NCBI GenBank assembly: GCA_000018565.1
Contig: CP000875.1
Location: 313,199-377,198 of the forward strand
Origin: Herpetosiphon aurantiacus DSM 785
GTDB taxonomy: Bacteria; Chloroflexota; Chloroflexia; Chloroflexales; Herpetosiphonaceae
DNA: 64,000 bases
Direction of reading: 5' to 3'
The notes below the pieces were generated by a model that was given only the letters and a program-made list of their open reading frames with translations, was not told the origin of the DNA and ran no database searches. Both the position numbers and the translations under genes were made by a program. This document shows positions 6,230-22,358 of the stretch, in pieces (position 1 is the first letter of the stretch; each line of letters begins with the position of its first letter).

Positions 6230-6717
6230 TTTGGCTCTAAATCGAGCAGCCAACAGCGTAACAGCGTGGCTAATTGTTCGCGCTGCTCGCTACTCAAACT
6301 GGCAATCAAGCGTTGTTCGTTGGCTAGATGCGCCTCGACGGCTCGATTGATCAGATCTAAACCCTCAGCTGTCAGCTGCACCAACAGGCTACGCCGATCG
6401 TGCGGATCGGGAATGCGCTCGATCAAGCCACGATCGGCCAAGCGATCAAGCCGATTGGTCATGGCTCCTGATGAGAGCATCAAGGTATTGAACAAGGCGG
6501 TTGGGCTACGCTGATAGGGCGCTCCTGACCGCCGCAAACTTGCCAGCACATCAAATTCCCCGCGTTGTAAGCCAAATTGGCCGAATATCCGCGCCAAATC
6601 ACGGCTCAAATGTTGTTCCAATCGCGCAATCCGCCCAATCAAGCCCATCGGCGTAGCATCAAGTTCTGGTCGTTCGCGCTGCCACTCAGCAATAAAACTA
6701 TCAACTTGGTCGTGCAT
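6220..6717 (-). CDS. MarR-family transcriptional regulator
   Basis: It has a winged-helix MarR signature (ASLRRSGAPYQRSPTALFNTLMLSSGAMTNRLDRLADRGLIERIPDPHDRRS). Confidence 0.8.
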   Translation of the reverse strand: MHDQVDSFIAEWQRERPELDATPMGLIGRIARLEQHLSRDLARIFGQFGLQRGEFDVLASLRRSGAPYQRSPTALFNTLMLSSGAMTNRLDRLADRGLIERIPDPHDRRSLLVQLTAEGLDLINRAVEAHLANEQRLIASLSSEQREQLATLLRCWLLDLEPNQA

Positions 6718-6724
6718 AGATTAT

Positions 6725-6845
6725 CTCGATATAAAGATACTTGGCATGAAGATAGATTATATCTTGATGTCAAGATACATTGTCAATACCATCAGCATAG
6801 CATATCTGGGTGCTGGTGAAATCTAGCGAAGTTTGTGTTGATCGG
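6725..6845. promoter_or_regulatory. marR promoter/operator region with inverted repeats; homologous copy upstream of eamA at 21325-21450
   Basis: It has inverted repeats (CTTGGCATGAAGATA / TATCTTGATGTCAAG, and ATCTTGA-TG-TCAAGAT). On the minus strand a TTGACA-N19-TATAAT promoter reads into marR. Confidence 0.5.
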
Positions 6846-6869
6846 CTAATGATGGAATATGCTCTTTGA

Positions 6870-7366
6870 TTACCCGAATCGGCGGCTGGAGGATTGGATT
6901 TTAGCGCTAGTGGGGGATGATTGGCTATAGTGTGTAGGCTGGTTGGTTATCTCGAATGCTGCATCCAAATCACTGCCTTTCATTTCCCTGTTTTGGTGAG
7001 CCAGCGGCGCACCAATTAATGTTGCAACGTTGGCAACGAGGTCGGTAAAACTGGCCGGAAGTTCGAGCACATCGCAGCCAGCTGCTTGCCTTGAATAAAG
7101 GCATGATCAACCGTCGTAACCAGAACGGGGATCTGCACCGTATTCGGATCAAAATGGAGTAATTTAAGTAATGGCCAGCCTGGGGCGGATGCTTGAAGGC
7201 CTACATCGAGAATAATTAAACTCGGTTGACTATCCCGTAACTGTTGATAGGTCAGGTCGGTGGTCAGGTAGGTGGTTGTAGCATAGCCTGCTTCGAGCAA
7301 GAATTCCTGTAATAAATCCAATAACGCCACATCATTATTGACAACGGCAATCGTTTGGGGCACCAT
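6870..7366 (-). pseudogene. Stand-alone CheY-like receiver domain gene, copy A, disrupted by a 16-bp deletion (frameshift)
   Basis: The first 94 aa are identical to the intact copy B (11569-11982) apart from V13L and F22L. A 16-nt deletion relative to copy B splits the C-terminus into a second frame (ORF 6870-7070). Confidence 0.5.
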
Positions 7367-7397
7367 AGGATGCTTCTTTATTATGGACTCGCGCTTA
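6998..7397. repeat. Direct repeat DR-A (~400 bp, ~97% identical to 11597-12009)
   Basis: I aligned the two copies by eye. They include the receiver gene, the upstream CATAGGATGCT(T/C)CTTTATTATGGACT leader, and the 3' flank. Confidence 0.8.
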
Positions 7398-7512
7398 CGG
7401 GCATTAACGGCATGATAGATCTAAGCTTGATGCGTATGGGGAATTTACTTTTAGTTCCTGATGTGGTAACTCCACGGATAGTCCACATGGCTCTCATTGT
7501 GTATCACGTTCG

Positions 7513-7941
7513 TTATGACGCTTCGGGTTCGGGGTTATCTGTATCGACCAATCCATGACGGATGGCCTCGCGAGCTCGTTCCGACAATCGTTGATATGTC
7601 GCCCGAATCTGGTCTAACTCGTCCTCTTCCAACTCCTCCAGATCAAGAAGCGCATTATGAGCACCCTGCGTTGCACGGATCAATTCATCAAGCTTGATTT
7701 GAATGGCTTCTGAATCGCGCGTCTGTGTATTTTGAATCAGAAAGACCATAAGAAAGGTAATAATCGTTGTGCTCGTATTAATCACCAACTGCCATGTATC
7801 GCTCCAGCCAAACAGTGGTCCACTAATCATCCACAGGAAGATCACCCCGACCGCAAGACCAAACGTCCTTGGTCGTCCCGTGATATGGGCAGTCCACTTG
7901 GAGACTTGGGTAAACCGTGACTTCGTTTTGACGCTGTACAT
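7513..7941 (-). CDS. Low-affinity iron permease family (PF04120-like) small membrane protein
   Basis: The motifs WSDTWQLVINTSTTIITFLMVFLIQNTQTRD and IQIKLDELIRA match the family consensus. Confidence 0.6.
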   Translation of the reverse strand: MYSVKTKSRFTQVSKWTAHITGRPRTFGLAVGVIFLWMISGPLFGWSDTWQLVINTSTTIITFLMVFLIQNTQTRDSEAIQIKLDELIRATQGAHNALLDLEELEEDELDQIRATYQRLSERAREAIRHGLVDTDNPEPEAS

Positions 7942-8225
7942 ACCATATCCTTTCTATGGTACCGATGGCGGGGATGGGATAAAGACCGGCATCTCACACC
8001 AGCCGTCCTCAAAAAACCATAGGCACGTTACGTGATCTTCGGCACAAAGACATCAACTCCCAGAACTACGATTGCTGGACATCCTTGCATTGCACACCAC
8101 TAAGTCGTCAATGTGGAAGCGAATAAAGCCAACCCGAGCACCTAGGCGCTTCACCTACAACGCCTCAATAATGCGGCGAACGCATAGATTCGGAAAATGT
8201 GACTCTTCATCTTCCCAGGCACGAT

Positions 8226-8921
8226 CTAGACAGCTGTCCCAAAGATCGCTCCAACGCCAGCCGTTAATGCCATCGCAAGCGCACCCCAAAACGCCACCCG
8301 CATGGCACCGACAATAATGGACGAACCACCGGTATAGGCAGCCAATATTCCCAGCAGCGTGAGGAATATGAGTGAGGTTCCCGTTACCAAAACAACGAGA
8401 TAGGAATTAGCCGCAAGCACGGCGGTCATCAGCGGGAGTATCGCGCCAACGGCAAAGGCAGCCGCCGACGCAAGCGCTGCTTGGATGGGACGGGCACTCA
8501 TGGTTTCGGAGATCCCAAGTTCATCACGGGCGTGGGCCGCGAGTGCATCCTTCAGCATCAATTGCTCGGCGACTTGCTCAGCGAGGGATGCGTCAAGGCC
8601 ACGGCGACCATAGATGGCTGCCAGTTCCGCACGTTCGGCGTGGGCATCCACGGCGAGTTCCATGCGCTCACGGTCAATATCCGCTCGTTCCGTATCTGCC
8701 TGGGAACTGACCGATACATATTCGCCTGCGGCCATGGACATTGCCCCTGCAACCAAGCCAGCAATGCCGGCCACGACCACCGACTGATGGGATGCATTTG
8801 ATGCGGCCATCCCAACCACCAGACTGGCAGTTGAGACAATCCCATCGTTTGCGCCTAAGACTGATGCACGCAGCCAGCCGATATGCTGGGTTCGATGCTG
8901 TTCTCGATGTGACGTGACCAT
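8226..8921 (-). CDS. VIT1/CCC1 family iron/manganese transporter
   Basis: It has the LGANDGIVSTASLVVGMAAS signature. It has an N-terminal ferritin-like (Er/DUF125-like) part and a C-terminal TM part. An AAGGAG RBS precedes it. Confidence 0.75.
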   Translation of the reverse strand: MVTSHREQHRTQHIGWLRASVLGANDGIVSTASLVVGMAASNASHQSVVVAGIAGLVAGAMSMAAGEYVSVSSQADTERADIDRERMELAVDAHAERAELAAIYGRRGLDASLAEQVAEQLMLKDALAAHARDELGISETMSARPIQAALASAAAFAVGAILPLMTAVLAANSYLVVLVTGTSLIFLTLLGILAAYTGGSSIIVGAMRVAFWGALAMALTAGVGAIFGTAV

Positions 8922-9168
8922 GGTGACTCCTTTGGAATCCAGGGAGCGGGTGAACCCCGTGTCTCTGATTCTCAGCGCAATACGCTCAGTGTGCCTTCCG
9001 CTTCACCAAGTCAGGAGCAGGTTGCACCAAGCAGTGGATCAGTATGTTGATCGATCATGGTGTATGCCTATGCCCGCTCGATCAGCGATGAGCAGCGCCT
9101 TGCACGACACACATCGATCCGATTACATGCAGAGCAGACGCGATGAACTACTGTCAGCCTTTGCACGG

Positions 9169-9729
9169 TTACACACTGACAGGCTGGATGCCAAAGCGTG
9201 CTGCGACCTCGGGGGTAATCAATCCTCGGAGCGCATAGCCAAGTCCGGTGATGATGAGGCCGAGGATGAAGAACCCGAGGCCGAGGGCCATCGCACCGTA
9301 GGATGCGCCGAGCGCCATTGCCGACAAACTGAGTGAGGTCACGAGACCCGCCGCAGTGAGTTGAGTCGTGCGTGCTTGGTTTGCCACAGGCTGACCCTTC
9401 GCATCCTTCAATGCCGCATCAACGGTATTCGTGCCAGATGGGTCGCCGCTGGCAACGGCAAAACGACCCATCTGGGCATAGGATAATCCATTGGAGCTGT
9501 CAGCGGCATGATGCTGAATAAGTGCGGCCATGCTGAGCGCAGTTGCGATCCCGGTTACTGGGGCATTCGGGATCGAGGCATCCGCTGGGGTTGTAATCTG
9601 TTGGGAACGGAGTTGCTCAGCGACGAACCTATTGATAAAGATGCCAGCGCCTGTGGTGACCAATCCACCACAGGTAAAAAGAACGCCGATCACCATAACG
9701 AGCGTTGGAAAGAGTCGTATCGTTTTCAT
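9169..9729 (-). CDS. Membrane protein, TM segments at both ends (hypothetical)
   Basis: A GAGGAGG RBS precedes it. There are hydrophobic N- and C-terminal segments. Confidence 0.45.
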   Translation of the reverse strand: MKTIRLFPTLVMVIGVLFTCGGLVTTGAGIFINRFVAEQLRSQQITTPADASIPNAPVTGIATALSMAALIQHHAADSSNGLSYAQMGRFAVASGDPSGTNTVDAALKDAKGQPVANQARTTQLTAAGLVTSLSLSAMALGASYGAMALGLGFFILGLIITGLGYALRGLITPEVAARFGIQPVSV

Positions 9730-9805
9730 CCCGACCTCCTCGCTGCAATGCAGCGGTCATCGTGGTCCGATTGCTGTGGTACTTGTAGGCTCCCCGCAGG
9801 TCGAA

Positions 9806-10242
9806 TTATGACTCCACCGTCGTTTGCGCCATGGTGATTGACTCCATGTGATGGACGGTCAAGAGCATCGTGCTCGCGATCTCGGCCCGCACACTATGCG
9901 CAATGGCGGGATTGAGGAACAGGATCTGTCCCGCATCCAAGCGATGATCATTCCCTGCGATCTGGATGCTCAACCTGCCGTTCAGTACCTGAATACTGAC
10001 GATTCCTTGGGCAACATGATCGGGAAGTTCACCGCCCGCATCAAAGACAAATAAGACGAGCGTGACTGGGGCTTGACGGAACAGGGTTATCTGCCGATGC
10101 CCGTGGATCGCGGGATGCACCTCATTCACGAGGTGATCGACAGCATCGGCAAGATGCAGAATCTGATTGTTGCCGATACCGCGTGTGATGGGATGGTCGC
10201 GGAGCCGAGGTGCTCCGTTGGGGACGGGAATAGGGTCGATCA
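9806..10242 (-). CDS. Cupin-domain protein
   Basis: There is a His-rich metal-site-like motif (HPAIHGHRQ). I chose the ATG at 10242 as the start because it has an AAGGAG RBS. Confidence 0.5.
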
Positions 10243-10747
10243 TAGTAACTCCTTGGATACGGATACGTGCCAATAGGCAGAGCATCGGACAGCCCTCCGT
10301 ATCGATTGCGATAGCCTACGTGCGACAGCAGTCTCCGTGGTTTCGGACACAAGCAGATCGGTGAGCGTTGGATTAAGCAGGGTATGACGACGGATGCGGG
10401 TGGGTGACTCTCCAAGAGCACGGAGGGGCATGTGGGAGCCATGGGTTGTCGGATACCAGCTGAGCGATTGTCTATTCAATCGTGCCATATCATGGCACTG
10501 TATCGTTGTCTTCCTGAAATGCTGACGGCACGAGGAGGCAGAATCCACCTTCGGTATTCCAGACATCTCGATCACCACGATCGTTTCCTGACAACCCATC
10601 TTGGGTGGATGATACTACCGCTTCATCGTGACAAACCGCAGCATGTGAAGTATTAGTAGCAGGACTACTGATATTGTTTTGGTTATACGGTAGGATATAC
10701 CATGGTGGTTGTTTCATCGAGAATTCCTTTCTGGGAGGCATCGGTGA

Positions 10748-11101
10748 TCAACATCTGCTATCCTTATGCATATAGTCTTGTTCTATGGGGACGGCCATGC
10801 TTTGAGGGGGACTTGTTCTGATAATCATCGCAGCGTTAATCCCCGCAGCAATCAGTGGCTCAGTAATTCCTGCCGCCGTCGTATCATGATGAATCCAAAT
10901 GATTCCGTCCCGATATTCTAGGTGCAGTAAACAATGATGGATACGATGGTGACCGTTCCATCCAATAACAATGACGAGATAGCGATGCTGATAAGGGTCA
11001 AAAATGGTTTGGAAACTATAGTTTCCATAGGCATACGGAATGCAGGTTTGTTCCGTTAAGACCAGTTCAAGGATTGTGCAGGGGCTTGTGCAGGTATCCA
11101 T
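10748..11101 (-). CDS. xisI: XisI-family protein (FdxN-element excision-controlling factor-like)
   Basis: It has the YLVIVIGWNGHHRIHHCLLHLEYRDGIIWIHHDTT...PLIAAGI signature typical of XisI (PF08869). It overlaps the 3' end of xisH. Confidence 0.75.
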   Translation of the reverse strand: MDTCTSPCTILELVLTEQTCIPYAYGNYSFQTIFDPYQHRYLVIVIGWNGHHRIHHCLLHLEYRDGIIWIHHDTTAAGITEPLIAAGINAAMIIRTSPPQSMAVPIEQDYMHKDSRC

Positions 11102-11490
11102 TGAATTGACTCCTCTTGGGTTGCATCAACCACAATAAACCGCATCTGATAAGCCGAACGTAAGAGATCCCTCAGCGGTGCGACTAACAAGGCCGTAAAT
11201 AGAGCTCGATCAAGCGCACAGTAGAGCGTACACATCGGGTCAAGTCGTCCAAGAATTGCTTGTGTCACTAAGGCTTGCCCCAAGAAGCATGTCAATGGTG
11301 GTACGCTACTGTCATCGTGCGGAGGGTAGATCGCAATCGCGATAGAACTATGGCTGTTGCTATTTGCCGCAAGATCAAGTTGGCTTTCGATCCCATACCA
11401 GAGCATACGTAATGGTTGATGGGTGATTAACCATCCCTGCCGTTCTAAGGCTGGAATCAAGATGGAAGACATGGTTGTATGAGACAACAT
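11056..11490 (-). CDS. xisH: XisH-family protein (PD-(D/E)xK-like endonuclease fold)
   Basis: It matches XisH: ALERQGWLITHQPL compared with ALxKDGWTITHDPL, and it has a C-terminal FIVVD...ESIQW motif. I chose the MLSH start because an AGGAG lies 9 nt upstream. The ORF-track start at 11520 is probably too long. Confidence 0.7.
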   Translation of the reverse strand: MLSHTTMSSILIPALERQGWLITHQPLRMLWYGIESQLDLAANSNSHSSIAIAIYPPHDDSSVPPLTCFLGQALVTQAILGRLDPMCTLYCALDRALFTALLVAPLRDLLRSAYQMRFIVVDATQEESIQWIPAQAPAQSLNWS

Positions 11491-11568
11491 CTTTCTCATC
11501 TCCTGCATGGAATGGGGCACACTTCGCCTTTCGGTAGGTAACCTATATTGAATTGATTACCCTTGGAT

Positions 11569-11982
11569 TTATGGTGGATCGCTTGTCGGTATGATTCGAG
11601 CCAGCGGCGCACCAATTAATGTTGCAACTTTGGCAACGAGGTCGGTAAAACTGGCCGGAAGTTCGAGCACATCGCAGCCAGCTGCTTGTAAAAAGGCTTG
11701 CTTACCTTGTATAAAAGCATGATCAACCGTCGTAACCAGAACGGGGATCTGCACCGTATTTGGATCAAAATGGAGTAATTTAAGTAATGGCCAGCCTGGA
11801 GCGGATGCTTGAAGGCCTACATCGAGAATAATTAAACTCGGTTGACTATCCCGTAACTGTTGATAGGTCAGGTCGGTGGTCAGGTAGGTGGTTGTAGCAT
11901 AGCCTGCTTCGAGCAAGAGTTCCTGTAATAAATCTAATAATGCCAAATCATTATTAACAACAGCAATCGTTTGGGGCACCAT
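11569..11982 (-). CDS. Stand-alone CheY-like receiver domain protein (intact copy B)
   Basis: The phosphoacceptor is in IILDVGL, with T in VLVTTVD and K in IQGKQ. The first acidic position is N (NND). Confidence 0.7.
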   Translation of the reverse strand: MVPQTIAVVNNDLALLDLLQELLLEAGYATTTYLTTDLTYQQLRDSQPSLIILDVGLQASAPGWPLLKLLHFDPNTVQIPVLVTTVDHAFIQGKQAFLQAAGCDVLELPASFTDLVAKVATLIGAPLARIIPTSDPP

Positions 11983-12009
11983 AGGATGCTCCTTTATTAT
12001 GGACTAGCG
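11597..12009. repeat. Direct repeat DR-B (partner of 6998-7397)
   Basis: Alignment by eye. It has 16 extra nt relative to DR-A. Confidence 0.8.
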
Positions 12010-12107
12010 TAGGCAGCAATTGTCTGCGCATTGTGATCGATGCGGAAATTCCGCAGCCGATCATGGTTTCCGCTTGCATTGGGCCAGCCCAACGCAAGCG
12101 GGATGGA

Positions 12108-12317
12108 TTAGGCATACGACTCCGGTTGACTCTCGGCGGTGCGCGTAGAGGATGGGTCAACCAGCCTCAGTCGCATTGGTCGGAGGGTCGTAACCCGCAG
12201 CGACGAATGACACGTCGCACAGATCACGATGCTGCCGCAATGCAAGACCCCCGAGAGTCCTTGTTTAGCACGACAGACGGGACAGGCAACCACGGTTATG
12301 CGCGCATAGGTGCTCAT
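12108..12317 (-). CDS. Zinc-ribbon small protein (two CxxC pairs)
   Basis: It has CPVC...CATC pairs. Its start overlaps the stop of the upstream LapA-like gene by 4 nt. Confidence 0.4.
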   Translation of the reverse strand: MSTYARITVVACPVCRAKQGLSGVLHCGSIVICATCHSSLRVTTLRPMRLRLVDPSSTRTAESQPESYA

Positions 12318-12699
12318 ACCGTGCGCTTTGGCGCATCATCGATCCATGGATCAAGGCGCTCACCGGTTTGTGGATTATAGTGTTGTGGCCCAGCCTCGAC
12401 GGCGAGTGGCATGGTTGTTGGTGGTGGCATCGCAGCATCAATTGGAATCAATGGTCGTTGGACAGGAGTGGCCTGCCCACGCTCGCGGAGGTTCGTATAG
12501 TAGGTCTCGATCTGGCGTGGAAAGGCAAACAAGCCAACCACCAGCATCCCACTGGCCAAGGCAGCCAATAGGAGCATCCATAGAGGCAAGGCTGGTGTTT
12601 GCCAATCGAAGAGGTGAATCGAAATCGCCGTTGTGTTTTGGAAGCCGATTGCTGCAAAGAGCAAGATTAAGATTCCAGTAATGATGCCAAGAATGGCTT
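12314..12699 (-). CDS. LapA-domain (DUF1049-like) small inner-membrane protein
   Basis: The protein starts MKAILGIITGILILLFAAIGFQN. An AAAGGAG RBS precedes the ATG at 12699. Confidence 0.5.
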
Positions 12700-15020: not shown

Positions 15021-15511
15021 TCAGCCAGTTTGGCCTCTATTCGTGGCATAATTACCAGCACGAAGCGATTCCAATCAGCGTCTGTCGTTGTGTTTATCAT
15101 GCGATAGTGCTATACTAGGTAGGTGAAGTATATCAATTGTATTTCACCTACCTACCTCTTAACTCGGCCATATCCCCCACTCGATAACTATTTTGGTTAT
15201 CCTATCATTCCGAGTTTTCACTCTTCAGATGAATGTTAATGATTGTCGGTGTGTTGAACACCATCATTGTTGCTGGCGAAAACGCTACCATACCATAATG
15301 GTCGCTTGCTCGCTGCAATTGTTGGTGATAGCCACTCACAAAAATCCCGCATGGTGACGCGCAGTTGCATCGGCATGTACTTAAAGGGATACGTCATCAA
15401 GCTCCGAGTCATCCACATATGGATGGCTTGGAATTAATTGTTGTTGTATGCACCCCTGTTGCTGTATGCACGTTCAATCAACCCGCTGGCTGCGCCGCGA
15501 GATAGGATATT

Positions 15512-16723
15512 TTGATGAAGCCGAATGGGATGCAGATCTTATTCATTGACCATGATGGGCATGGCATACCCATTATTGCGTCGATCATCACGGCAATTCA
15601 AACCGTCCAGTATCGCCTGATTGCGGTCTCCGACCTCCACCATGGCCTGAGTATGCTGGCAACTCGCCGGATCGATGCTATCTTGGTGCGACTGTCACTG
15701 ACGGATAATACCGGCATGATCATCCAAACGCTGTCTGATCATGCATCAACCTATCCACTCATTCTCTCCTCCCCAAATACCGATGATCACACCTTGATCC
15801 CTATGCTGCACGGCGGGGTTCATGCCACGCTGTTTGACGATGAACTTACGCCAGCACTGTTTCAGCGGACACTCGACTATGGGTTTGCCCGCGTCGCTCA
15901 ATTAGCGGCAGAAGATCATGTCCAAACGCTCACCAGCACGCTGGCAGTGGCGCTTGATACAACCCATCAGATTGAACATCATCTGGCAATTGCGATTCAT
16001 GAACTCCAAACGCCCATCAGTATTTTGCTCGGCTATATTGATCTATTTGAGCGACGAGTTGCGACATGGGGTGGAATTCCCCTACGCGAACGGCAAATGA
16101 TTAATACGATGCGGATGCAAGCGATTCATGTAGGACGATTGGTTCCAACGTTGCTTGATAGCACGCTGATGACGCACGAGCTTGGGCCGATTCAGCGGCG
16201 TTCGCTTGAACTGAGTGCGGTGCTGCGAACGGTCGTTGGAGCAATGCAAGGCATGCGAGCCTCGCATCTGTTGGTGTTGCGGGTGCCCGATGCAGCTGTA
16301 TGGATTGAGGGCGATTATGGGCGCTTAGTTCAAATTTTTCAGAATCTCTTGCTCAATGCCCTGCACTATAGCGGCATGCATAGTGAAATTACCATCACCC
16401 TCGCTGCTGATGGGCAGATCACCATTCAGGATTATGGGGTCGGGATCTCCGCTGATGCCCTTGTGCAAATTGCGCGTCCATTTTTTGACACTGCTGATCC
16501 CCATGGAGCGGCACGGATTGGTCAAGGACTTGGCTTGGCCATTGTGCAAGAACTCATCCAGCAACACGAGGGCAGCATCACGATCGCCAGCACGGTAGAT
16601 CATGGAACAACCATCACCATCCAATTTCCCTGGAGTGTTCGGCCAACCCGTCTACCGGAACATCCTGCATCAATGCCGGTGAACTATCCCACCATTACTG
16701 ATATTCAAGGGAGCACGCTATGA
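15512..16723 (+). CDS. Sensor histidine kinase with N-terminal degenerate receiver-like domain
   Basis: It has an H-box (IAIHELQTPISILLGYIDL) and HATPase_c motifs (NLLLNALHYSG, DYGVGIS, GQGLGLAIV). The start may be at 15530. Confidence 0.75.
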   Translation: MMKPNGMQILFIDHDGHGIPIIASIITAIQTVQYRLIAVSDLHHGLSMLATRRIDAILVRLSLTDNTGMIIQTLSDHASTYPLILSSPNTDDHTLIPMLHGGVHATLFDDELTPALFQRTLDYGFARVAQLAAEDHVQTLTSTLAVALDTTHQIEHHLAIAIHELQTPISILLGYIDLFERRVATWGGIPLRERQMINTMRMQAIHVGRLVPTLLDSTLMTHELGPIQRRSLELSAVLRTVVGAMQGMRASHLLVLRVPDAAVWIEGDYGRLVQIFQNLLLNALHYSGMHSEITITLAADGQITIQDYGVGISADALVQIARPFFDTADPHGAARIGQGLGLAIVQELIQQHEGSITIASTVDHGTTITIQFPWSVRPTRLPEHPASMPVNYPTITDIQGSTL

Positions 16724-16992
16724 AAAAACGTTCTGTTCTGCTCTGGCTAAGCCTGATTGGTGGGCTGATGCTACTGGGTAGTGCTAGCCCACAACCACAG
16801 GTGACGATTGGTGGTCTGACCATTCCCGTGTGGCAGATGCTCATGGCGATCGTTCTCACCATGCTGAGTGGATTAGTGCTGCGGTTCATAGCTCACCAAT
16901 ATCATGAGTATCGCACACTCTACAACCACCCCCCCACCCATTGGAATCAATGGCCAGACGATCCGCTGCCATCGAAACCGAGCATTCGCTAA
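16720..16992 (+). CDS. Small membrane protein, translationally coupled to the kinase (ATGA overlap)
   Basis: There is a signal/TM segment (MKKRSVLLWLSLIGGLMLLG) and a second TM segment. Confidence 0.45.
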   Translation: MKKRSVLLWLSLIGGLMLLGSASPQPQVTIGGLTIPVWQMLMAIVLTMLSGLVLRFIAHQYHEYRTLYNHPPTHWNQWPDDPLPSKPSIR

Positions 16993-17020
16993 CCCAACGA
17001 CTATTTCGGAAGGAGGCGTT

Positions 17021-17332
17021 ATGGTGGCCTGTTCTACCACCACGATCATTGAAACAGTGCTGATCGCAACGCTATGTCCTGACACGACGGGAACATGTGC
17101 CGTACAAACTGTGTTTGACCGCGAGCAACAGCATTATATGGTGGTGGTTGCTGGTTGGCACGGACAGCATCGGATTCATCGTTGTCTTGTGCATATCGCC
17201 TATCACGATGAGCGGGTTTGGATTCATTGTGATCATACAATCCATGGGATTCCTGAGCGCTTAATCGCCGCAGGGATTCCTGCCACCCGCATTTTGCAGG
17301 TTTTTCCGCTGGCTGGCCTACGCATGCCCTAG
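17021..17332 (+). CDS. Orphan XisI-like protein
   Basis: It has the YMVVVAGWHGQHRIHRCLVHIAYHDERVWIHCDHT...RLIAAGIP signature. A GGAGG RBS lies before the ATG at 17021. There is no adjacent xisH. Confidence 0.65.
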   Translation: MVACSTTTIIETVLIATLCPDTTGTCAVQTVFDREQQHYMVVVAGWHGQHRIHRCLVHIAYHDERVWIHCDHTIHGIPERLIAAGIPATRILQVFPLAGLRMP

Positions 17333-17372
17333 CCGCCCATGGCGCTCCGATCATTCAAGAAAGGGGCTATCG

Positions 17373-17837
17373 ATGGATAGTCATTGGTTTACACCCGATC
17401 ATCAGCACTATTTTCAGGTAGGGATTGATTCCTATCCGCATCCCGTTCCCGTTACCAATGCCCTACGTTGTCTGTTGTTTGGGTTTAGTCAGCAGGATCA
17501 TCCGCTGGTGATCCATCCCCTGACCTTTGCTGAACCAAATCATTTTGGTACCTTCACGCAGCGCTGGATGAGTCCTCAGATGCAAGGGAATGCCATCGCA
17601 GGCTGGACAGGCTTTATGGCTTTACGCTATCTGTTGGGCTACTTTAGCCAGTGGGTGCTGCTCCCACCTGCTATTCGCTATCAGGCTTGGCATCCGACCG
17701 CCCGCACGGTTACGCCACCAGTTCAGGTGATTGCCGCCATTCGGGCCTGGGATGTGGGCTGGGAACATCAGCTTGATAACCTTTTGCCACGGATTGAAAC
17801 ATTGCGCCACCCACAATATGCCGCTCTGGCAGGGTGA
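17373..17837 (+). CDS. Hypothetical protein
   Basis: It is an ORF with an AAAGGGG RBS. It has Trp-rich regions and no recognisable motifs. Confidence 0.4.
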   Translation: MDSHWFTPDHQHYFQVGIDSYPHPVPVTNALRCLLFGFSQQDHPLVIHPLTFAEPNHFGTFTQRWMSPQMQGNAIAGWTGFMALRYLLGYFSQWVLLPPAIRYQAWHPTARTVTPPVQVIAAIRAWDVGWEHQLDNLLPRIETLRHPQYAALAG

Positions 17838-17866
17838 TTGCTTCCCGTTAGTATAGGAGGTGTGGC

Positions 17867-20209
17867 ATGCCGACACCGATTCGCTCAATCTTAATCATTG
17901 GAAATTATGCTCCGCGCCAGTGTGGCATAGCAACCTATACCACCGATTTACGCATGGCCTTGCTTGACGCGTATCCGCAGAGCAGGATCGACGTGATGGC
18001 CATGAATGATACTCCCGCAGGCTATGACTACCCCGATTCAGTCGTCTTTACGATTGATCAGGATGACCCCTATGCCTATTATCAAGCTGCCGATTTTATC
18101 CGCTTGAGTTCGTATGACCTTGTGTGTATTCAGCACGAATATGGGATTTTTGGTGGTGCTTCGGGGCGGAATCTGCTCTTGCTCATTCGTGCTATCACGA
18201 TTCCGATTGTAACCACCTTACACACGGTGTTACGCGAACCAACCGCCGATCAACATACGATTCTGTGGGAGCTTGCGCAACGATCACAACGGATTATCGT
18301 GATGAGTTCGCATGCGGTCGATTTAATGCATACAATCTATGGTATTCCATTGGCTCAGATTGATTGTATTCCGCATGGCATTCCTGATCTGCCGTTTCGC
18401 GATGGCTATGAGGATAAACAACACGCGAATCTGATTGGGAAGCAGGTTTTGCTTACCTTCGGCTTGCTTTCGCCAAATAAAGGGATTGAAGATGTCTTAC
18501 ATGCGTTGCCATTGCTGATCAAACAGCATCCGCATGTGCTGTATCTGATTGTTGGCGCAACCCATCCAACCGTTCGTCAAACCTTTGGCGAGGCCTATCG
18601 GGAGATGCTTCAGGCCTTAGTCGAGCAACTTGGAATTCAAGCGCATGTGCGGTTTCACGACCAATTTGTGAGTTCCAGCGCTTTAGCAATTTATATGGGT
18701 GCGGCTGATATTTATATTACGCCCTATCATACCCAAGAACAAAGCGTCTCGGGTACTTTAGCCTATGCGATTGGGGCAGGCAAGGCGATTGTCTCGACAC
18801 CCTATTGGTATGCAACCGAACTCTTGGCCCATGGTGGTGGCATGCTGGTTCCGTTTCATGATCCAGCGCTGCTCGCTGAGCAGGTTAACACGCTTTTAGC
18901 CGAACCCCAGCTGCGTCAAACCATCCGCGAACGCGCCTATCAACGCGGGCGCACGATGCTCTGGTCGGTTGTTGCCACGCACTATATGCACAGTTTTATG
19001 CAGGCACGAACGCACCCCCTCCATCCCGTGCTAGTGCTGGCGAATCAACCAATCAAGTCCGATTCGCCGATCATCCCGCCGTTATGTCTTGATCATCTGA
19101 TCGCCATGACTGACGATATGGGCTTGATCCAACATGCGATCTTGAATATTCCGAATCATCACGAAGGCTATGCGACCGATGATAATGCGCGAGCCTTGAT
19201 TGCCACGATGCTGCTCGATCCTATCCAAGAACCACAGGCCCAGCGCTTGGCAATGCGCTATTTAGCGTTTCTCTGGTATGCCTTTAATCCAGCGACCCAA
19301 CGGTTTCGCAACTTTATGGGGGCAAATCGGCAGTGGTTAGAGGCGACAGGCTCGGAAGATGCCCATGCTCGCAGTATCTGGGCACTTGGCACGGTGCTTG
19401 AACAGAGCCATGATCCGGGCTTGTGCGGCGTTGCGCAACGACTCCTCCGTTTTGCGCTTCCAGCGGTGGCTCAGCTGACTCACCCACGGCCATGGGCCTT
19501 AGCATTGTTGGGTTTCGCTGCCTATCGTCAACGCTTTCCTGGTGATCGCACGGTTATGGCCAGCCAATTGCACCTCGCTGAACAATTATTGTCCCGCTTT
19601 CAAGCGGCGCATCAGCCTGATTGGGAATGGTTTGATGATCATCTGACCTATGATAATGCGGTTCTGCCGCATGCATTGATTGTCAGCGGTCAAACCCTTC
19701 AGCGCCCAGATATGGTTGAGGCTGGGTTAACGGCCTTGACCTGGCTCTGTGCGATTCAGCGGCCTGAGGCTGACCATTTCAAGCCCATTGGCTCGAATGG
19801 GTTTTTCCAGCGTGGGCAAGCTCCAGCCCACTATGATCAACAGCCAATTGAGGCTCAGGCAACCGTGCTGGCAGCCTGTGCCGCCTTTGAAAGCACAGGC
19901 GATTCAGGCTGGTACGATGAAGCCCAGCATGCCTTTTATTGGTTTCTCGGCCACAACGATGCAGGCGTAGCCCTTTACGACCCGCGCACTGGTGGCTGTG
20001 CTGATGGGCTGGAAATTGATCGGATTAATCAAAATCAGGGGGCTGAATCAACCCTCGCATTTTTAATTGGCCGATTGACGATGCAGACGATCACGCCACC
20101 AATCAGGCGCGGAACAGCGGAAAACACGTCAGCCAGCGTCACCCGACCACCGCGCATTCGAGCGGATTTGATTCCGCCACGTGATCCCAATCCATCAAGA
20201 CCATTGTAG
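17867..20209 (+). CDS. GT4-family glycosyltransferase fused to a C-terminal (alpha/alpha)6-barrel-like domain
   Basis: A GGAGG RBS precedes it. The N-terminal ~380 aa have a GT-B/GT4 layout. The C-terminal ~350 aa are helical, resembling AGE or GH63 toroids. The specific family cannot be assigned by eye. Confidence 0.7.
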   Translation: MPTPIRSILIIGNYAPRQCGIATYTTDLRMALLDAYPQSRIDVMAMNDTPAGYDYPDSVVFTIDQDDPYAYYQAADFIRLSSYDLVCIQHEYGIFGGASGRNLLLLIRAITIPIVTTLHTVLREPTADQHTILWELAQRSQRIIVMSSHAVDLMHTIYGIPLAQIDCIPHGIPDLPFRDGYEDKQHANLIGKQVLLTFGLLSPNKGIEDVLHALPLLIKQHPHVLYLIVGATHPTVRQTFGEAYREMLQALVEQLGIQAHVRFHDQFVSSSALAIYMGAADIYITPYHTQEQSVSGTLAYAIGAGKAIVSTPYWYATELLAHGGGMLVPFHDPALLAEQVNTLLAEPQLRQTIRERAYQRGRTMLWSVVATHYMHSFMQARTHPLHPVLVLANQPIKSDSPIIPPLCLDHLIAMTDDMGLIQHAILNIPNHHEGYATDDNARALIATMLLDPIQEPQAQRLAMRYLAFLWYAFNPATQRFRNFMGANRQWLEATGSEDAHARSIWALGTVLEQSHDPGLCGVAQRLLRFALPAVAQLTHPRPWALALLGFAAYRQRFPGDRTVMASQLHLAEQLLSRFQAAHQPDWEWFDDHLTYDNAVLPHALIVSGQTLQRPDMVEAGLTALTWLCAIQRPEADHFKPIGSNGFFQRGQAPAHYDQQPIEAQATVLAACAAFESTGDSGWYDEAQHAFYWFLGHNDAGVALYDPRTGGCADGLEIDRINQNQGAESTLAFLIGRLTMQTITPPIRRGTAENTSASVTRPPRIRADLIPPRDPNPSRPL

Positions 20210-20237
20210 TGTCTCTTGGCGAGGCAGTCTGGAATAC

Positions 20238-21194
20238 ATGATGATGCAACCTAATCGACTCGATCTCTTCGCACGCCATCCAGCCAACCCGATTTTACAA
20301 GCAAGCGATTGGCCGTACCCGATTAATAGCGTGTTTAACCCTGGTGCAACCGTGCTCGCCGATGGGACGACCTTGTTATTATGCCGCGTTGAAGATCGGC
20401 GTGGCCATTCGCATTTTTGTGCAGCTCGCTCGGCCAATGGGCTTGATCATTGGCAAATTGATGCCCACCCAACCTTTGCCCCCGATCCACAGCAGTATCC
20501 CGAAGAACGCTGGGGGATTGAAGATCCACGCATTACCTATCTTGAGGAATTAGCGGCCTATGGGGTTGTATATACCTCCTATGCGACTGGTGGGCCTGGG
20601 GTTTCCTTGGCAACCACCACCGATTTCAAGACCTTTACCCGCTATGGGGTCGTGATGCAGCCCGAAAATAAAGATGCGGCGCTCTTTCCAGTGCGGATTA
20701 ACGGCTTATGGGCGATGATCCATCGCCCAATTGGCGCACAAGGGTCGCATATTTGGATGTCGCTCTCACCGGATTTGCGCCATTGGGGCCAACACCAATG
20801 TATGCTTGAGGCTCGTAAAGGCGGATGGTGGGATGCTAATAAAATTGGGTTGTCGCCACCGCCGATCGCCACCGAGGAAGGCTGGTTGATGATCTATCAT
20901 GGCGTTCGGATGACTCCTGGTGGGTGTCTCTATCGGCTTGGCGTAGCCCTGTTCGATACCGAACATCCTGAGCGCTGTCTGCGGCGTGGCGAACCATGGG
21001 TCTTGAGTCCGCACACGGAGTATGAACGCCATGGTGATGTCCCCAATGTGATTTTCCCCTGTGGCGTGACCGTCCTGCCGGATGGCGATACCCTCCATGT
21101 CTATTATGGAGCCGCCGATAGCTGCGTTGCGGTTGCGATTGGAAGTATTCGCCAGATTCTTGATTGGCTGACGATCTATGGAGTGGCGACGTAA
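20238..21194 (+). CDS. GH130 family glycoside phosphorylase/hydrolase (beta-mannoside phosphorylase-like)
   Basis: It has DUF377/GH130 signatures (WGIEDPRITY, IYHGV, and a beta-propeller). Its start overlaps the upstream gene's end. The start may be 20181 or 20238. Confidence 0.8.
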   Translation: MMMQPNRLDLFARHPANPILQASDWPYPINSVFNPGATVLADGTTLLLCRVEDRRGHSHFCAARSANGLDHWQIDAHPTFAPDPQQYPEERWGIEDPRITYLEELAAYGVVYTSYATGGPGVSLATTTDFKTFTRYGVVMQPENKDAALFPVRINGLWAMIHRPIGAQGSHIWMSLSPDLRHWGQHQCMLEARKGGWWDANKIGLSPPPIATEEGWLMIYHGVRMTPGGCLYRLGVALFDTEHPERCLRRGEPWVLSPHTEYERHGDVPNVIFPCGVTVLPDGDTLHVYYGAADSCVAVAIGSIRQILDWLTIYGVAT

Positions 21195-21324
21195 GCCTAG
21201 GCCGCTGGATTGCTTGAAGGCTGGTTGGGCAACTGAACCGCGAACATGGTATCAAGCTAATTGGAAGAAGATCGAGTTTCAGTCGTTCTCCTAGGCACTC
21301 AGCCAAAAACTATTAACCTCGTCG

Positions 21325-21450
21325 TGCATGAAACTGTCTCGACATAAAGATGCTTGACATGAAGATAAATTTCTTATATCTTCATGTCAAGCTAAATTGT
21401 CAATCCCATCACTATTGTCATTAGATAGTGCTGATGGGATTTAGCGAAGG
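21325..21450. promoter_or_regulatory. eamA promoter with MarR-type operator (homolog of 6725-6845), plus relic of marR 5' end
   Basis: There is a perfect 15-bp inverted repeat (CTTGACATGAAGATA / TATCTTCATGTCAAG) that contains a TTGACA-N17-TATCTT promoter. Upstream at ~21296-21334 there is a relic marR 5' end. Confidence 0.5.
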
Positions 21451-21458
21451 CGGCGGCG

Positions 21459-22358
21459 ATGCAACGATTGTGGAATATGCTGTTAACGGCGATTGCTCCA
21501 ATTTTGTGGGGCACAACCTATGTCATTACCACCGAGTGGCTGCCAGCCAACCGTCCGTTGTTGGTCGGCGTAATGCGGGCCTTGCCGATTGGCTTGATCT
21601 TTTTGGCCTTGGGGCGGCAATTGCCCAAAGGCATTTGGTGGTGGCGCTCGTTGGTGCTGGGCGCGTTGAATATTGGCTTCTTCTTCCCCTTATTATTTAT
21701 TGCCGCCTACCGCTTGCCTGGTGGTATCGCCGCTACGTTGGGCGCATTGCAACCATTTATCGTGGCGTTTTGGGGCTGGGTGGTGCTCAAAGAGCGAGTC
21801 ACTTCGCGCTTGCTGTTGATGGCGGGTTTAGGTGTGCTTGGGGTTGGCATGATGCTGCTCAATCCACAGGCTCAACTTGATGCTTGGGGCATGCTGGCAG
21901 CTTTTGGTGGCGCGATGCTCTATGGCGTGGGCATTACATTAAACAAACATTGGGGACGACCAGTGCCCTTATTGACCTATACCGCTTGGCAATTGGTGGT
22001 TGGCGGCCTGATGATTGTGCCAATTGCCCTGTTGATTGAAGGCCTACCGCCCGCCTTTACAACCAGCAATTGGCTGGGTTTTGGCTTGATTGGCCTCGTC
22101 AACACGGGCGTGGCTTATCTCTTTTGGTTTCGCGGCATCGAGCGCCTAAAAACATCCACCATGTCGTTTTTGATTTTGCTTAGCCCAGTTTCAGCGACCG
22201 TGCTAGGCTGGCTGGTACTCGATCAACGCCTGAGTTGGTTGCAAATGCTGGGCGCTTTGGTGGTACTGGCTAGCATCGTATTAAGCCAACTGCCGAGCCG
22301 CCAGCCCACCCCGCGTTTGCAGGTGCAACCAGCAGCTGACTCTGCCCTCACCCCCTAG
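21459..22358 (+). CDS. EamA/DMT-superfamily transporter
   Basis: It has 10 predicted TM segments with two EamA halves. Confidence 0.8.
   Translation: MQRLWNMLLTAIAPILWGTTYVITTEWLPANRPLLVGVMRALPIGLIFLALGRQLPKGIWWWRSLVLGALNIGFFFPLLFIAAYRLPGGIAATLGALQPFIVAFWGWVVLKERVTSRLLLMAGLGVLGVGMMLLNPQAQLDAWGMLAAFGGAMLYGVGITLNKHWGRPVPLLTYTAWQLVVGGLMIVPIALLIEGLPPAFTTSNWLGFGLIGLVNTGVAYLFWFRGIERLKTSTMSFLILLSPVSATVLGWLVLDQRLSWLQMLGALVVLASIVLSQLPSRQPTPRLQVQPAADSALTP

What the first reader, a model, noticed from the sequence alone, without database searches (positions are those of the whole stretch)
6690..21500. A 14.4-kb accessory block bounded by diverged duplicate copies of the marR-eamA promoter junction
The marR 5' end and promoter/operator region (6690-6880) and the region upstream of eamA (21296-21500) are about 75-80% identical over ~180 bp in direct orientation. 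Each copy keeps a relic of the partner gene. At 21334-21296, rc, the sequence ATGCACGACGAGGTTAATAGTTTTTGGCTGAGTGCCTAG encodes MHDEVNSFWLSA*. This is a decayed copy of the MarR N-terminus MHDQVDSFIAEW. Conversely, downstream of the marR promoter the sequence 6855-6868 CTAATGATGGAATATGCT mirrors the eamA start ATGCAACGATTGTGGAATATGCT. So the ancestral state was probably a divergent marR-eamA pair. Everything between now (6880-21300) looks like inserted or duplicated accessory DNA. It contains the metal transporters, xisH/xisI, the duplicated receiver genes, a histidine kinase, an orphan xisI, a hypothetical Asp-box protein, and the GT4-fusion plus GH130 genes.
Basis: seen in the sequence. Interest (0 to 1): 0.65.

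Follow-up and report, generated by a model that had tools for sequence, protein, structure and literature searches.

The report
Regulator-exporter gene pair split by insertion
In Herpetosiphon aurantiacus an old 14.4-kb insertion split a conserved back-to-back regulator and exporter gene pair and duplicated about 245 bp of their shared control region, so each gene kept its own promoter and operator; this is a clear but fairly ordinary example of genome-island evolution.

Summary
The repeat is real. Window 6638-6879 (copy A) and 21251-21502 (copy B) are direct copies, 75.6% identical over 180 bp (E=1e-25), with only two copies in the window and one per locus elsewhere.

Five other Herpetosiphon species, two close strains, Nostoc and Microbacterium all have marR and eamA adjacent and divergent across about 128 bp.

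The regulator is PecS/UrtR-type and eamA is a PecM-like exporter. The duplicated piece carries two UrtR-consensus boxes that overlap candidate divergent promoters.

New points:
- **Source.** The window is H. aurantiacus DSM 785.
- **Age.** The insertion is old. H. gulosus and a metagenome strain share it and the same decayed relics, so it predates their split.
- **Polymorphism.** Block-free alleles still exist in the same species complex.
- **Origin of the block.** It is Herpetosiphon DNA found at other loci in H. geysericola and strain NSE202. It is much more similar at silent sites than the flanks, which indicates exchange within the genus.
- **Layers.** A 4.6-kb iron-permease module was added later, with its own 400-bp duplication of a receiver gene.

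No recombinase, tRNA or att-like site was found. How the duplication arose is unresolved.

The parts
6220..6717 (-). marR, a PecS/UrtR-type MarR-family repressor of 165 aa (ABX02922.1 of H. aurantiacus ATCC 23779).
   Evidence: Pfam MarR/MarR_2. Best solved relative is PecS 8YLH, E=1e-45. Residues W12, D56, R63 and H130 align with the UrtR-invariant W24, D68, R75 and H142 (PMC11602129).
6638..6879 (.). Copy A of the duplicated junction. It holds the first 27 codons of marR, the full intergenic control region, and a decayed relic of the eamA start.
   Evidence: Left of the core it differs from the intact junction of L017 at 2 of 80 sites (marR part) and 10 of 112 sites (intergenic part). Right of the core it differs at 18 of 47 sites and has a 5-bp gap.
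6737..6777 (.). Copy A operator: box 1 ATACTTGGCATGAAGATA (6737-6754) and box 2 TATCTTGATGTCAAGATA (6760-6777). The boxes sit 4 bp closer together than in intact junctions.
   Evidence: The 4-bp deletion is shared with H. gulosus copy A. It is absent from L080 copy A and from all intact junctions. The match to the UrtR consensus TxxCT-N8-AGxxA was read directly from the sequence against PMC11602129.
6832..6879 (+). Relic of the eamA ribosome-binding site and first ~12-15 codons. The ATG has become ATC and there is a 5-bp deletion.
   Evidence: The same relic with shared changes is present in L080 and H. gulosus.
6880..6997 (.). 118-bp left-end segment of the insert, origin unknown.
   Evidence: Homologous in the block-bearing genomes L080 and H. 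gulosus. No match in any other held locus.
6998..7393 (-). RRa', a duplicate of the receiver gene region. The ORF at 7016-7366 (116 aa) is frameshifted by a 16-bp deletion.
   Evidence: 93% identical to 11598-12009. L080 has a single receiver gene with the left context of RRa' and the right context of RRb, which is the un-inserted state.
7394..11597 (-). Younger nested module: low-affinity iron permease (7513-7941), VIT1 (8226-8921), 186-aa hypothetical (9169-9729), cupin (9806-10285), XisI (10748-11101) and XisH (11056-11520).
   Evidence: Pfam. Absent from block-bearing strain L080. Four-fold-site divergence is 0.05-0.17 against H. geysericola, NSE202 and H. gulosus, while flank genes give 0.2-0.7.
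11598..21250 (.). Older layer of the insert: receiver RRb (11569-11982, minus strand), LapA-domain protein (12314-12940, minus strand), 588-aa hypothetical (13254-15020), histidine kinase (15512-16723), 90-aa ORF, XisI (16904-17332), 154-aa hypothetical, GT4-fusion glycosyltransferase (17867-20209), GH130 (20181-21194), and 56 bp of unique right-end DNA.
   Evidence: Pfam. The same gene order occurs at other loci in H. geysericola and NSE202. It lies between marR and eamA in L058/L080. Four-fold divergence against H. geysericola is 0.26-0.40, while the flanks give 0.61-0.74.
21251..21502 (.). Copy B of the duplicated junction. It holds a decayed relic of the marR 5' end, a diverged intergenic region with both boxes, and the intact eamA start.
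   Evidence: The marR relic differs from L017 at 23 of 79 sites and has a 1-bp frameshift. The intergenic part differs at 26 of 117 sites. The part right of the core differs at 3 of 52 sites.
21251..21329 (-). Relic of the first ~27 codons of marR (MHDEVNSFWLSA*, then further stops).
   Evidence: Strain L058/L080 shares most of the derived changes.
21350..21394 (.). Copy B operator and promoters: box 1 ATGCTTGACATGAAGATA (21350-21367) and box 2 TATCTTCATGTCAAGCTA (21377-21394). Perfect 15-bp inverted arms are separated by 9 bp. TTGACA-17 nt-TATCTT promoter-like sites are present on both strands.
21402..21441 (+). Extended hairpin in the eamA leader of copy B (AATCCCATCACTATTGTC...GATAGTGCTGATGGGATT). 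Intact junctions have only a 7-8 bp version.
   Evidence: the 86-nt stretch 21385-21470 containing the hairpin folds at -28 kcal/mol, z=-2.9. The matching L017 leader gives z=+0.4.
21440..21449 (.). Core TTTAGCGAAG (copy A equivalent TCTAGCGAAG, 6822-6831). This is the approximate point where each copy switches between conserved and decayed sequence.
   Evidence: Change-point analysis. Support intervals are alignment columns 169-175 for copy A and 183-207 for copy B. By eye the switch lies at 6812-6834 / 21430-21452.
21459..22358 (+). eamA, a PecM-like 10-TMS drug/metabolite exporter of 299 aa.
   Evidence: Pfam EamA x2. TIGR00950 gives 184 bits, below its cut-off of 230. It is the divergent partner of the regulator in all intact loci.

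Best explanation
The ancestor had a divergent PecS-type regulator (marR) and PecM-like exporter (eamA) sharing a ~128-bp control region with two repressor boxes. These boxes overlap candidate back-to-back promoters.

**The insertion.** Early in the H. aurantiacus/H. gulosus lineage, a block of about 9-10 kb of Herpetosiphon-type genes was inserted just upstream of the eamA start. The block ran from the receiver gene through GT4-GH130 and was probably acquired from another Herpetosiphon lineage. This happened after the split from the H. geysericola group.

**The duplication.** The event duplicated about 245 bp of the target: 27 marR codons, the whole intergenic region, and about 12-15 eamA codons. 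Each gene therefore kept a complete promoter and operator copy. The useless halves then decayed in place: the eamA start next to marR, and the marR start next to eamA. The boxes were kept in both copies, so the repressor probably still controls eamA in trans from 14 kb away.

**The later addition.** A 4.6-kb iron-permease/VIT1/cupin/XisI-XisH module that is spreading among Herpetosiphon species inserted into the block. It made a second, ~400-bp duplication of the receiver gene.

**What is shown:** the repeat, the ancestral adjacency, shared relics in three lineages, the block at other loci in other species, the silent-site divergence layers, and the un-inserted state of the receiver gene.

**What is inferred:** the regulatory consequence, and the molecular mechanism that made the duplications. 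The likeliest mechanisms are single-crossover (insertion-duplication) integration of a circular fragment, or fill-in of staggered breaks.

The confidence given applies to the insertion-with-duplication history. The specific mechanism is much less certain.
For: **Repeat and relics:**

**Intact pairs:** five other species, two close strains and distant phyla.

**Age of the insertion:**
- Block-bearing relatives have the same junctions and shared relic changes: L058/L080 and H. gulosus L082.
- Flank trees place H. gulosus basal. Its four-fold divergence (K4) from the window is 0.22-0.36, while the H. geysericola group gives 0.61-0.74.
- Relic divergence is JC 0.37-0.54. This fits an insertion between those two splits.
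- The relic differs between the window and L058 by only about 8%, close to the silent-site rate.

**Origin of the block:** it is contiguous at other loci in H. geysericola and NSE202, 90-94% identical against 83% for the flanks. K4 is 0.26-0.40 for the right layer and 0.05-0.17 for the left layer.

**Nested event:** L080 has a single receiver gene and no iron-permease module.

**Regulator type and boxes:**, and PMC11602129 and PMC6391409.

**Not dispersed or mobile-element-like:** the repeat is not dispersed. The block has no match in plasmids, phages or viral contigs. No tRNA or Rfam family was found. No recombinase domain was found in any of the 18 block ORFs submitted to Pfam; the 90-aa ORF was checked only against NCBIfam.
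Against: **Mechanism not observed.** No donor is known in which the block lies beside a junction fragment.

**Block-free strains inside the clade.** L017 and L081 nest among block-bearing strains in the flank trees. This requires either long coexistence of both alleles with flank recombination, or secondary deletions.

**Recombination at the junction.** The left flank of L080 is nearly identical to block-free L081 right up to the core. Recombination breakpoints therefore sit at the junction and blur the history.

**Weak dating.** Relic ages rest on about 125 sites. The flank trees are nearly star-like for eamA.

**Uncertain promoter in copy A.** Copy A has a 4-bp deletion between the boxes, so its palindromic promoter spacing is 13 nt. 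How marR is transcribed there is unknown.

**Unknown copy number.** Whether H. aurantiacus has another GT4-GH130 copy elsewhere was not checked, because only this window was available.
Confidence: 0.8

Rival explanations
1. Recent integration: a circular element carrying the block plus an already-diverged copy of the junction (an attP-like piece made of copy B's left part and copy A's right part) recombined once with an intact junction at the TTTAGCGAAG core. Block-free strains such as L017 are the unoccupied or excised state.
For: The two copies switch between conserved and diverged sequence at roughly the same place, in reciprocal fashion. The relics are about three times older than the window-L017 split. 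Block-bearing and block-free strains are interleaved in the flank trees. The block or its parts have moved between species.
Against: H. gulosus, the basal member of the clade, already has the same relic, the same left-end DNA and the same 4-bp box deletion. The insertion is therefore old enough for in-place decay to explain the relic age. No recombinase gene is in the block. In H. geysericola and NSE202 the block has no junction-like sequence at its ends. The longest run identical between the two copies is about 11 bp, read from alignment A1. No circular or extrachromosomal form was found.
Confidence: 0.1
2. Whole-locus duplication: the complete marR-eamA pair was duplicated, as pecS-pecM pairs are in Vibrio. 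The inner marR and eamA copies were then mostly deleted and replaced by other genes, leaving only their 5' ends.
For: pecS-pecM duplications are reported in Vibrio (PMC6391409). Both relics start at the gene starts and could be remnants of longer copies.
Against: Homology ends sharply after about 27 marR codons and about 12-15 eamA codons, at the same points in three lineages. No other marR or eamA remnant exists anywhere in the block. No related genome shows two full pairs.
Confidence: 0.07
3. The block between marR and eamA is the ancestral arrangement, and the adjacent pairs in other genomes arose by deletion.
For: Block-free strains L017 and L081 nest within block-bearing strains in the flank trees. 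At least some adjacency could therefore be secondary.
Against: Adjacent divergent pairs with the same palindromic boxes occur in five other Herpetosiphon species, in Nostoc and in Microbacterium. The window carries decayed duplicate gene starts, which only an insertion with duplication explains. In other species the block sits at other loci.
Confidence: 0.02
4. The ~180-bp similarity is a common dispersed promoter or repeat element, not a duplication of this junction.
For: The window does contain dispersed short repeats, the 43-bp and 69-bp families found.
Against: Only two copies exist in the window. There is one copy per locus in 953 kb of related DNA, always at the marR-eamA junction. The copies include coding relics of both genes.
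Confidence: 0.01

Closest known systems
pecS-pecM (UrtR-type MarR repressor with a divergent DMT/EamA efflux pump), as in Dickeya, Agrobacterium and Vibrio
   Same: The regulator is most similar to the solved PecS structure (8YLH, E=1e-45). It keeps the four invariant UrtR residues. In related genomes it is divergent from an EamA-family exporter. The intergenic DNA has two boxes fitting the UrtR consensus TxxCT-N8-AGxxA (PMC11602129, PMC6391409).
   Different: Here the pair is physically split by 14.4 kb and the control region exists in two diverged copies. The host is a Chloroflexia bacterium. Ligand response and DNA binding are untested. eamA scores below the TIGR00950 cut-off, and no direct comparison with PecM was made.
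Genomic islands and integrative elements flanked by direct repeats that include a displaced partial copy of the target gene (attL/attR)
   Same: A multi-gene insert is bounded by direct repeats derived from the target. A functional gene end lies on one side of each repeat and a displaced relic on the other. The insert is present or absent among close strains and shows signs of horizontal exchange.
   Different: No integrase or other recombinase is in the block of H. aurantiacus. There is no tRNA target. The repeats are long (~245 bp), only 75-80% identical, and have no identical core longer than about 11 bp. The cargo is ordinary genus-level genes that sit at different, non-att-like loci in other species.
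Insertion-duplication by single-crossover (Campbell-type) integration of circular DNA
   Same: The product has the expected form: insert flanked by two direct copies of the homologous segment. It is seen twice here, nested: the 245-bp junction and the 400-bp receiver gene. For the receiver-gene case the un-inserted state exists in L080, and the right joint (xisH-RR-LapA) is collinear with the arrangement in other species.
   Different: No circular intermediate or donor was observed. The mosaic test on the receiver-gene copies was inconclusive. For the main event no known source places the block beside a junction fragment.
XisH/XisI of the Anabaena fdxN excision element
   Same: The block encodes one XisH-XisI pair and one orphan XisI (Pfam).
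   Different: No XisF-type or any other recombinase is present. The xisH-xisI pair is absent from the NSE202 version of the block and from the short block of L080. It therefore belongs to the later module and has no demonstrated link to the insertion.

Membership tests
UrtR / PecS subfamily of MarR regulators | Four absolutely conserved residues (W24, D68, R75 and H142 in PecS numbering). | tested here: met
   The alignment to 8YLH places W12, D56, R63 and H130 at those positions. The residue list is from PMC11602129.
UrtR / PecS subfamily of MarR regulators | Gene divergent from a pecM-type (EamA/DMT) exporter gene. | tested here: met
   The genes are adjacent and divergent in all intact relatives. 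In the window itself they are separated by the insertion. The criterion is stated in PMC6391409.
UrtR / PecS subfamily of MarR regulators | Palindromic operator fitting TxxCT-N8-AGxxA in the intergenic region. | tested here: met
   Box 2 fits at 6 of 6 positions and box 1 at 5 of 6, in both copies. This was read from the sequences returned against the consensus quoted.
UrtR / PecS subfamily of MarR regulators | Urate or xanthine relieves DNA binding. | not testable with these tools
   Needs binding assays.
Integrative element / genomic island with site-specific recombination | Encodes, or lies next to, a tyrosine or serine recombinase. | tested here: not met
   No recombinase domain was found in any block ORF scanned. 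tblastn with the H. geysericola integrase fragment found nothing in the window. A degraded integrase lies beside the block only in H. geysericola.
Integrative element / genomic island with site-specific recombination | Identical core sequence shared by the two flanking repeats. | tested here: inconclusive
   TCTAGCGAAG and TTTAGCGAAG lie at the switch point, with one mismatch. The longest identical run between the copies is about 11 bp.
Integrative element / genomic island with site-specific recombination | Presence/absence polymorphism at the same site among close relatives. | tested here: met
   Block present in the window, L058/L080 and H. gulosus. Block absent in L017/L018 and L081.
Campbell-type insertion-duplication | Insert flanked by two direct copies of one segment that is single-copy in the un-inserted state. 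| tested here: met
   Shown for the junction (L017, L081 and other species against the window) and for the receiver gene (L080 against the window and H. gulosus).
Campbell-type insertion-duplication | Reciprocal mosaic of resident and incoming sequence in the two copies, attributable to one crossover. | tested here: inconclusive
   A reciprocal pattern exists at the junction. In-place decay plus selection explains it equally well now that the insertion is known to be old. The receiver-gene test was uninformative.
Transposon or insertion sequence | Transposase gene, terminal inverted repeats and a short (2-14 bp) target duplication. | tested here: not met
   No transposase domain. No inverted repeats of 40 bp or longer in the window. 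Only short direct word matches (≤11 bp) and inverted matches (≤8 bp) link the block's two ends. The duplication is about 245 bp.

The most novel reading that the evidence does not exclude
Herpetosiphon may have a recurrent, recombinase-independent way of adding gene modules that duplicates a few hundred base pairs of the target each time. Two nested instances occur at this locus. When the target is a shared divergent control region, the duplication lets both genes keep regulation. The mechanism could be integration of circularised DNA taken up from relatives, and might involve the co-travelling XisH/XisI proteins.
Probability: 0.15. Interest if true: 0.55.

Novelty: new member of a known kind. 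Interest (0 to 1): 0.35.

Why it matters
This is a clean natural example of how a shared, bidirectional control region survives being split. Duplication gives each gene its own copy, and the copies then specialise. It offers a testable case of a PecS-type repressor acting on an exporter gene 14 kb away.

It also documents three things in a little-studied predatory Chloroflexia genus:
- layered exchange of gene modules within the genus;
- an iron-transport module that differs by only 5-17% at silent sites between species whose core genes differ by 22-74%;
- a long-lived presence/absence polymorphism with recombination breakpoints at the insertion junction.

None of this overturns current understanding.

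Tried and rejected
- **Pre-diverged attP-like junction.** For some time I favoured recent single-crossover integration of an element carrying an already-diverged junction, because the relics looked about three times older than the split from block-free strain L017. I downgraded this after finding the same relics and the same 4-bp deletion in H. gulosus.
- **Short repeats at the block ends.** An 11-mer AGGCTGGTTGG occurs at 6936 and 21218, and a 17-mer at 21212 and 36525. The second copy of the 17-mer (36525) lies in the repeat-rich 32-39 kb part of the window (repeat families). I treated both matches as uninformative.
- **GH130 3' end as an attachment site.** Synteny breaks there in four genomes, but the alignment shows only a poorly conserved C-terminal tail.
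- **Junction-like sequence at block ends in H. geysericola and NSE202.** None was found.
- **Plasmid, phage and viral-contig searches.** Searches with the block and with a relic-specific pattern found nothing.
- **Reciprocal-mosaic test on the two receiver-gene copies.** Too few informative sites, and there are signs of gene conversion between the copies.
- **tRNA and Rfam scans.** Nothing found.
- **Flank imported with the block.** The sliding identity profile of the left flank against L017 shows no drop near the block, so the marR side was not imported with it.

Full report
**1. Observation**

Self-BLAST of the window pairs 6658-6831 with 21271-21449 in direct orientation, 75.6% identical over 180 bp, E=1e-25. 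No third copy exists.

Multiple alignments with related junctions extend the homology to 6638-6879 (copy A) and 21251-21502 (copy B).

It lies at 21291-21329 on the reverse strand, not at 21296-21334. The eamA-start relic string is at 6846-6863.

Pfam confirms the gene list:
- STAND NTPase 4040-6229
- marR 6220-6717 (minus strand)
- a truncated receiver 7016-7366
- iron permease, VIT1, a 186-aa hypothetical, cupin, XisI, XisH
- receiver 11569-11982
- a LapA-domain protein, a 588-aa hypothetical, histidine kinase, XisI, a 154-aa hypothetical
- a GT4 fusion, GH130
- eamA 21459-22358

**2. Source and identity of the pair**

The MarR protein is ABX02922.1 of Herpetosiphon aurantiacus ATCC 23779 (DSM 785), on the 6.35-Mb chromosome.

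- Its closest solved relative is PecS (8YLH, E=1e-45). MftR and HucR follow.
- In the printed alignment, W12, D56, R63 and H130 occupy the positions of the four residues that PMC11602129 gives as invariant in urate-responsive MarR proteins.
- eamA is a 10-TMS drug/metabolite exporter. It has two Pfam EamA domains, and TIGR00950 gives 184 bits, below its cut-off.
- PecS proteins are defined partly by being divergent from pecM, an efflux pump gene, and by repressing both genes from the intergenic region (PMC6391409).

The duplicated DNA contains two 18-bp boxes. Box 2 (TATCTTSATGTCAAGMTA) fits the UrtR consensus TxxCT-N8-AGxxA at all six positions. Box 1 fits at five.

In copy B and in intact junctions, the boxes form perfect 15-bp inverted arms 9 bp apart. 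These also read as TTGACA-17 nt-TATCTT promoter-like sites on both strands. The same kind of box is recognisable upstream of the Nostoc homologues.

**3. Ancestral state**

The gene pair is adjacent and divergent, about 128 bp apart, in:
- H. llansteffanensis, H. geysericola, strain NSE202, H. giganteus and a Chloroflexia MAG;
- strains L017/L018 (MarR 98% identical) and L081;
- a 69%-identity relative;
- Nostoc, other cyanobacteria and Microbacterium.

The left flank (STAND NTPase, CAP, PrmC, AroK/B fusion) is syntenic in all the Herpetosiphon loci. The 326-aa gene to the right of eamA is conserved in H. geysericola, H. giganteus and L058.

About 203 bp of the intact L017 junction aligns to both window copies. 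The inserted DNA is therefore 6880-21250 plus one copy of the ~245-bp segment.

The element is not dispersed. It occurs once per locus in 953 kb of related DNA.

**4. Age of the insertion**

Against the intact junction:

| Region | Differences from L017 |
|---|---|
| Copy A, marR part | 2.5% |
| Copy A, intergenic part | 9% |
| Copy A, eamA relic | 38%, plus a 5-bp gap |
| Copy B, marR relic | 29%, plus a frameshift |
| Copy B, intergenic part | 22% |
| Copy B, right of the core | 6% |

The switch in both copies lies near TTTAGCGAAG (6822-6831 / 21440-21449).

Four-fold-site divergence (K4) of the flanking genes:

| Window compared with | K4 |
|---|---|
| L017, L080, L081 | about 0.1-0.2 |
| H. 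gulosus | 0.22-0.36 |
| H. geysericola group | 0.61-0.74 |

The relics, at JC 0.37-0.54, looked too old for a strain-level insertion. The puzzle was resolved by two further block-bearing genomes:
- the MAG contig Ga0209460_1000024 (L058/L080, about 95% identical in DNA);
- H. gulosus (L082).

Their relics share most derived changes with the window. H. gulosus also shares the 118-bp left-end segment and the 4-bp deletion between the boxes of copy A.

In flank trees H. gulosus is basal to the window and to L080, L081 and L017. The insertion therefore predates the gulosus/aurantiacus split and postdates the split from the H. geysericola group. The relics decayed in place at about the silent-site rate. 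The relic differs by about 8% between the window and L058, where K4 of the neighbouring genes is 0.10-0.18.

**5. Block-free alleles inside the clade**

L017 and L081 lack the block yet group with block-bearing L080 in the flank trees.

- The left side of L080's copy A is almost identical to L081 up to the core and lacks the 4-bp deletion.
- The two B copies (window and L080) share derived sites just right of the core that L017 and L081 lack.
- The eamA of L081 is not L080-like, at 92.7% identity.

The simplest reading is that both alleles have coexisted in a recombining population, with exchange tracts ending at the junction. A secondary deletion between the repeats cannot be excluded.

**6. 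What the block is**

The same gene order, from iron permease through GH130, lies at other loci:
- In H. geysericola it is beside a degraded tyrosine integrase and Tn3 fragments on one side, and HORMA/TRIP13-type genes on the other.
- In NSE202 it is beside PrcB and an S8 peptidase.

A LapA-XisI-GT4-GH130 core occurs in yet another context in a more distant MAG, where those genes are about 73-80% identical in DNA to the window.

Identity to the window is 94.2% (7461-13476) and 90.0% (14742-21181), against 83% for the flanks.

Silent-site divergence separates two layers:
- **Right layer** (HK to GH130): 0.26-0.40 against H. geysericola.
- **Left layer** (iron permease to LapA): 0.05-0.17 against H. 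geysericola, NSE202 and H. gulosus.

Both values are well below the core values, so block sequences have been exchanged within the genus. The iron-permease layer was exchanged very recently. The iron permease itself has no close relative outside Herpetosiphon; the next hit is 70% identical, in Acidobacteria.

**7. Nested second event**

L080 has a short block with one receiver gene. Its left context is that of the window's RRa' and its right context is that of RRb. It has no iron-permease module.

In the window and in H. gulosus, the 4.2-kb module is flanked by two receiver-gene copies, 6998-7393 and 11598-12009. These are 93% identical, and RRa' carries a 16-bp frameshifting deletion. The xisH-RRb-LapA joint is collinear with the arrangement in H. 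geysericola. Those genomes also keep a 30-bp vestige of the receiver 3' end beyond the iron permease.

This is a second insertion with a duplication of several hundred base pairs at the same locus. A site-by-site mosaic test was uninformative.

**8. Mechanism**

The following were not found:
- a recombinase or transposase domain in any block ORF scanned;
- a tRNA or Rfam family;
- long inverted repeats;
- a plasmid, phage or viral-contig match.

A ~245-bp target duplication is far longer than transposition makes. Three routes remain open:
- single-crossover integration of a circular fragment (insertion-duplication);
- fill-in of widely staggered breaks or template switching;
- a small tandem duplication that later served as a harmless landing site.

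The nested receiver-gene case makes the first route somewhat more attractive. There the incoming DNA naturally carried the homologous gene. For the main event, no source is known that places the block beside a junction fragment.

**9. Function (inferred)**

After the split each gene has its own control region.

- **Copy B** keeps both boxes, the 17-nt promoter spacing, the ribosome-binding site and the eamA start. The PecS-type repressor should therefore still control eamA in trans. Copy B's leader has acquired an extended hairpin, and the 86-nt stretch containing it folds with z=-2.9.
- **Copy A** keeps both boxes and the upstream TTGTCAAT. However, in the window and H. gulosus it has lost 4 bp between the boxes, so the palindromic promoters have 13-nt spacers. 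marR may therefore be transcribed from another start, or by read-through from the same-strand genes upstream.

These points need experiments.

**10. Verdict**

- the insertion is ancient and shared at lineage level;
- the block is genus-native and layered;
- the mechanism of duplication is unresolved.

This is a well-documented member of a known kind, an island insertion bounded by duplicated target sequence. Its instructive feature is the duplication and specialisation of a bidirectional PecS/PecM control region.

Noticed in passing
window 6998-7393 and 11598-12009: A second, younger direct duplication of about 400 bp (93% identical, with a 16-bp indel) of a receiver gene flanks the 4.2-kb iron-permease/VIT1/cupin/XisI/XisH module. 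Strain L080 shows the single-copy, un-inserted state.
   Followed up: yes
window 7461-13476 compared with L053/L056, L057 and L082: The iron-permease-to-LapA stretch differs by only 0.05-0.17 at four-fold sites between species whose core genes differ by 0.2-0.7. This indicates very recent horizontal spread within the genus. The iron permease has no relative above 74% identity outside Herpetosiphon.
   Followed up: partly
window 22415-22457, 23775-23817, 56035-56077; 23561-23629 and 53583-53651: Two families of short dispersed repeats (43 bp and 69 bp, GC-rich, partly palindromic) recur in the window. They also recur in other Herpetosiphon loci, often where synteny breaks (for example L017 1133-1209, L019 8279-8345, and several in L022). 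They look like REP or MITE-type elements.
   Followed up: partly
window 32281-33460 vs 34194-35373, and 33653-33993 / 37790-38097 / 38388-38728: Large diverged internal duplications (72-81% identical) and GTTGG-rich short tandem-like repeats lie in the 32-39 kb region, probably within repetitive surface or secreted protein genes.
   Followed up: no
window 13476-14742: A 1.27-kb segment inside the 588-aa hypothetical gene is missing from the H. geysericola and NSE202 versions of the block. That gene is fragmented there, and most of it is also absent from L080. The gap coincides with the boundary between the two divergence layers of the block.
   Followed up: partly
window 21402-21441: The eamA leader in copy B folds into a 17-bp hairpin that is an extension of a 7-8 bp inverted repeat (CCATCAG...CTGATGG) conserved in all intact junctions. 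The extension is shared by strain L058.
   Followed up: partly
L053 13802-15677 and L056 10711-14806 (H. geysericola contig LGKP01000020.1): In H. geysericola the block lies between a degraded tyrosine integrase with Tn3-family fragments and a bacterial HORMA / AAA (TRIP13-like) / DUF6602 cluster. This looks like a defence-island setting.
   Followed up: no
window 10492-11404: The xisI-xisH pair is a 0.9-kb indel within the block. It is present in H. aurantiacus, H. geysericola and H. gulosus and absent from NSE202.
   Followed up: partly
L001-L014: Contigs 100% identical to the window at both junctions occur in many unrelated public metagenome runs (ENA PRJEB12287, several Logan SRR/ERR runs, two JGI samples). 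Assemblies often break at the receiver-gene repeat. The type strain or a near-clone appears to be widespread, or is a recurrent contaminant.
   Followed up: no
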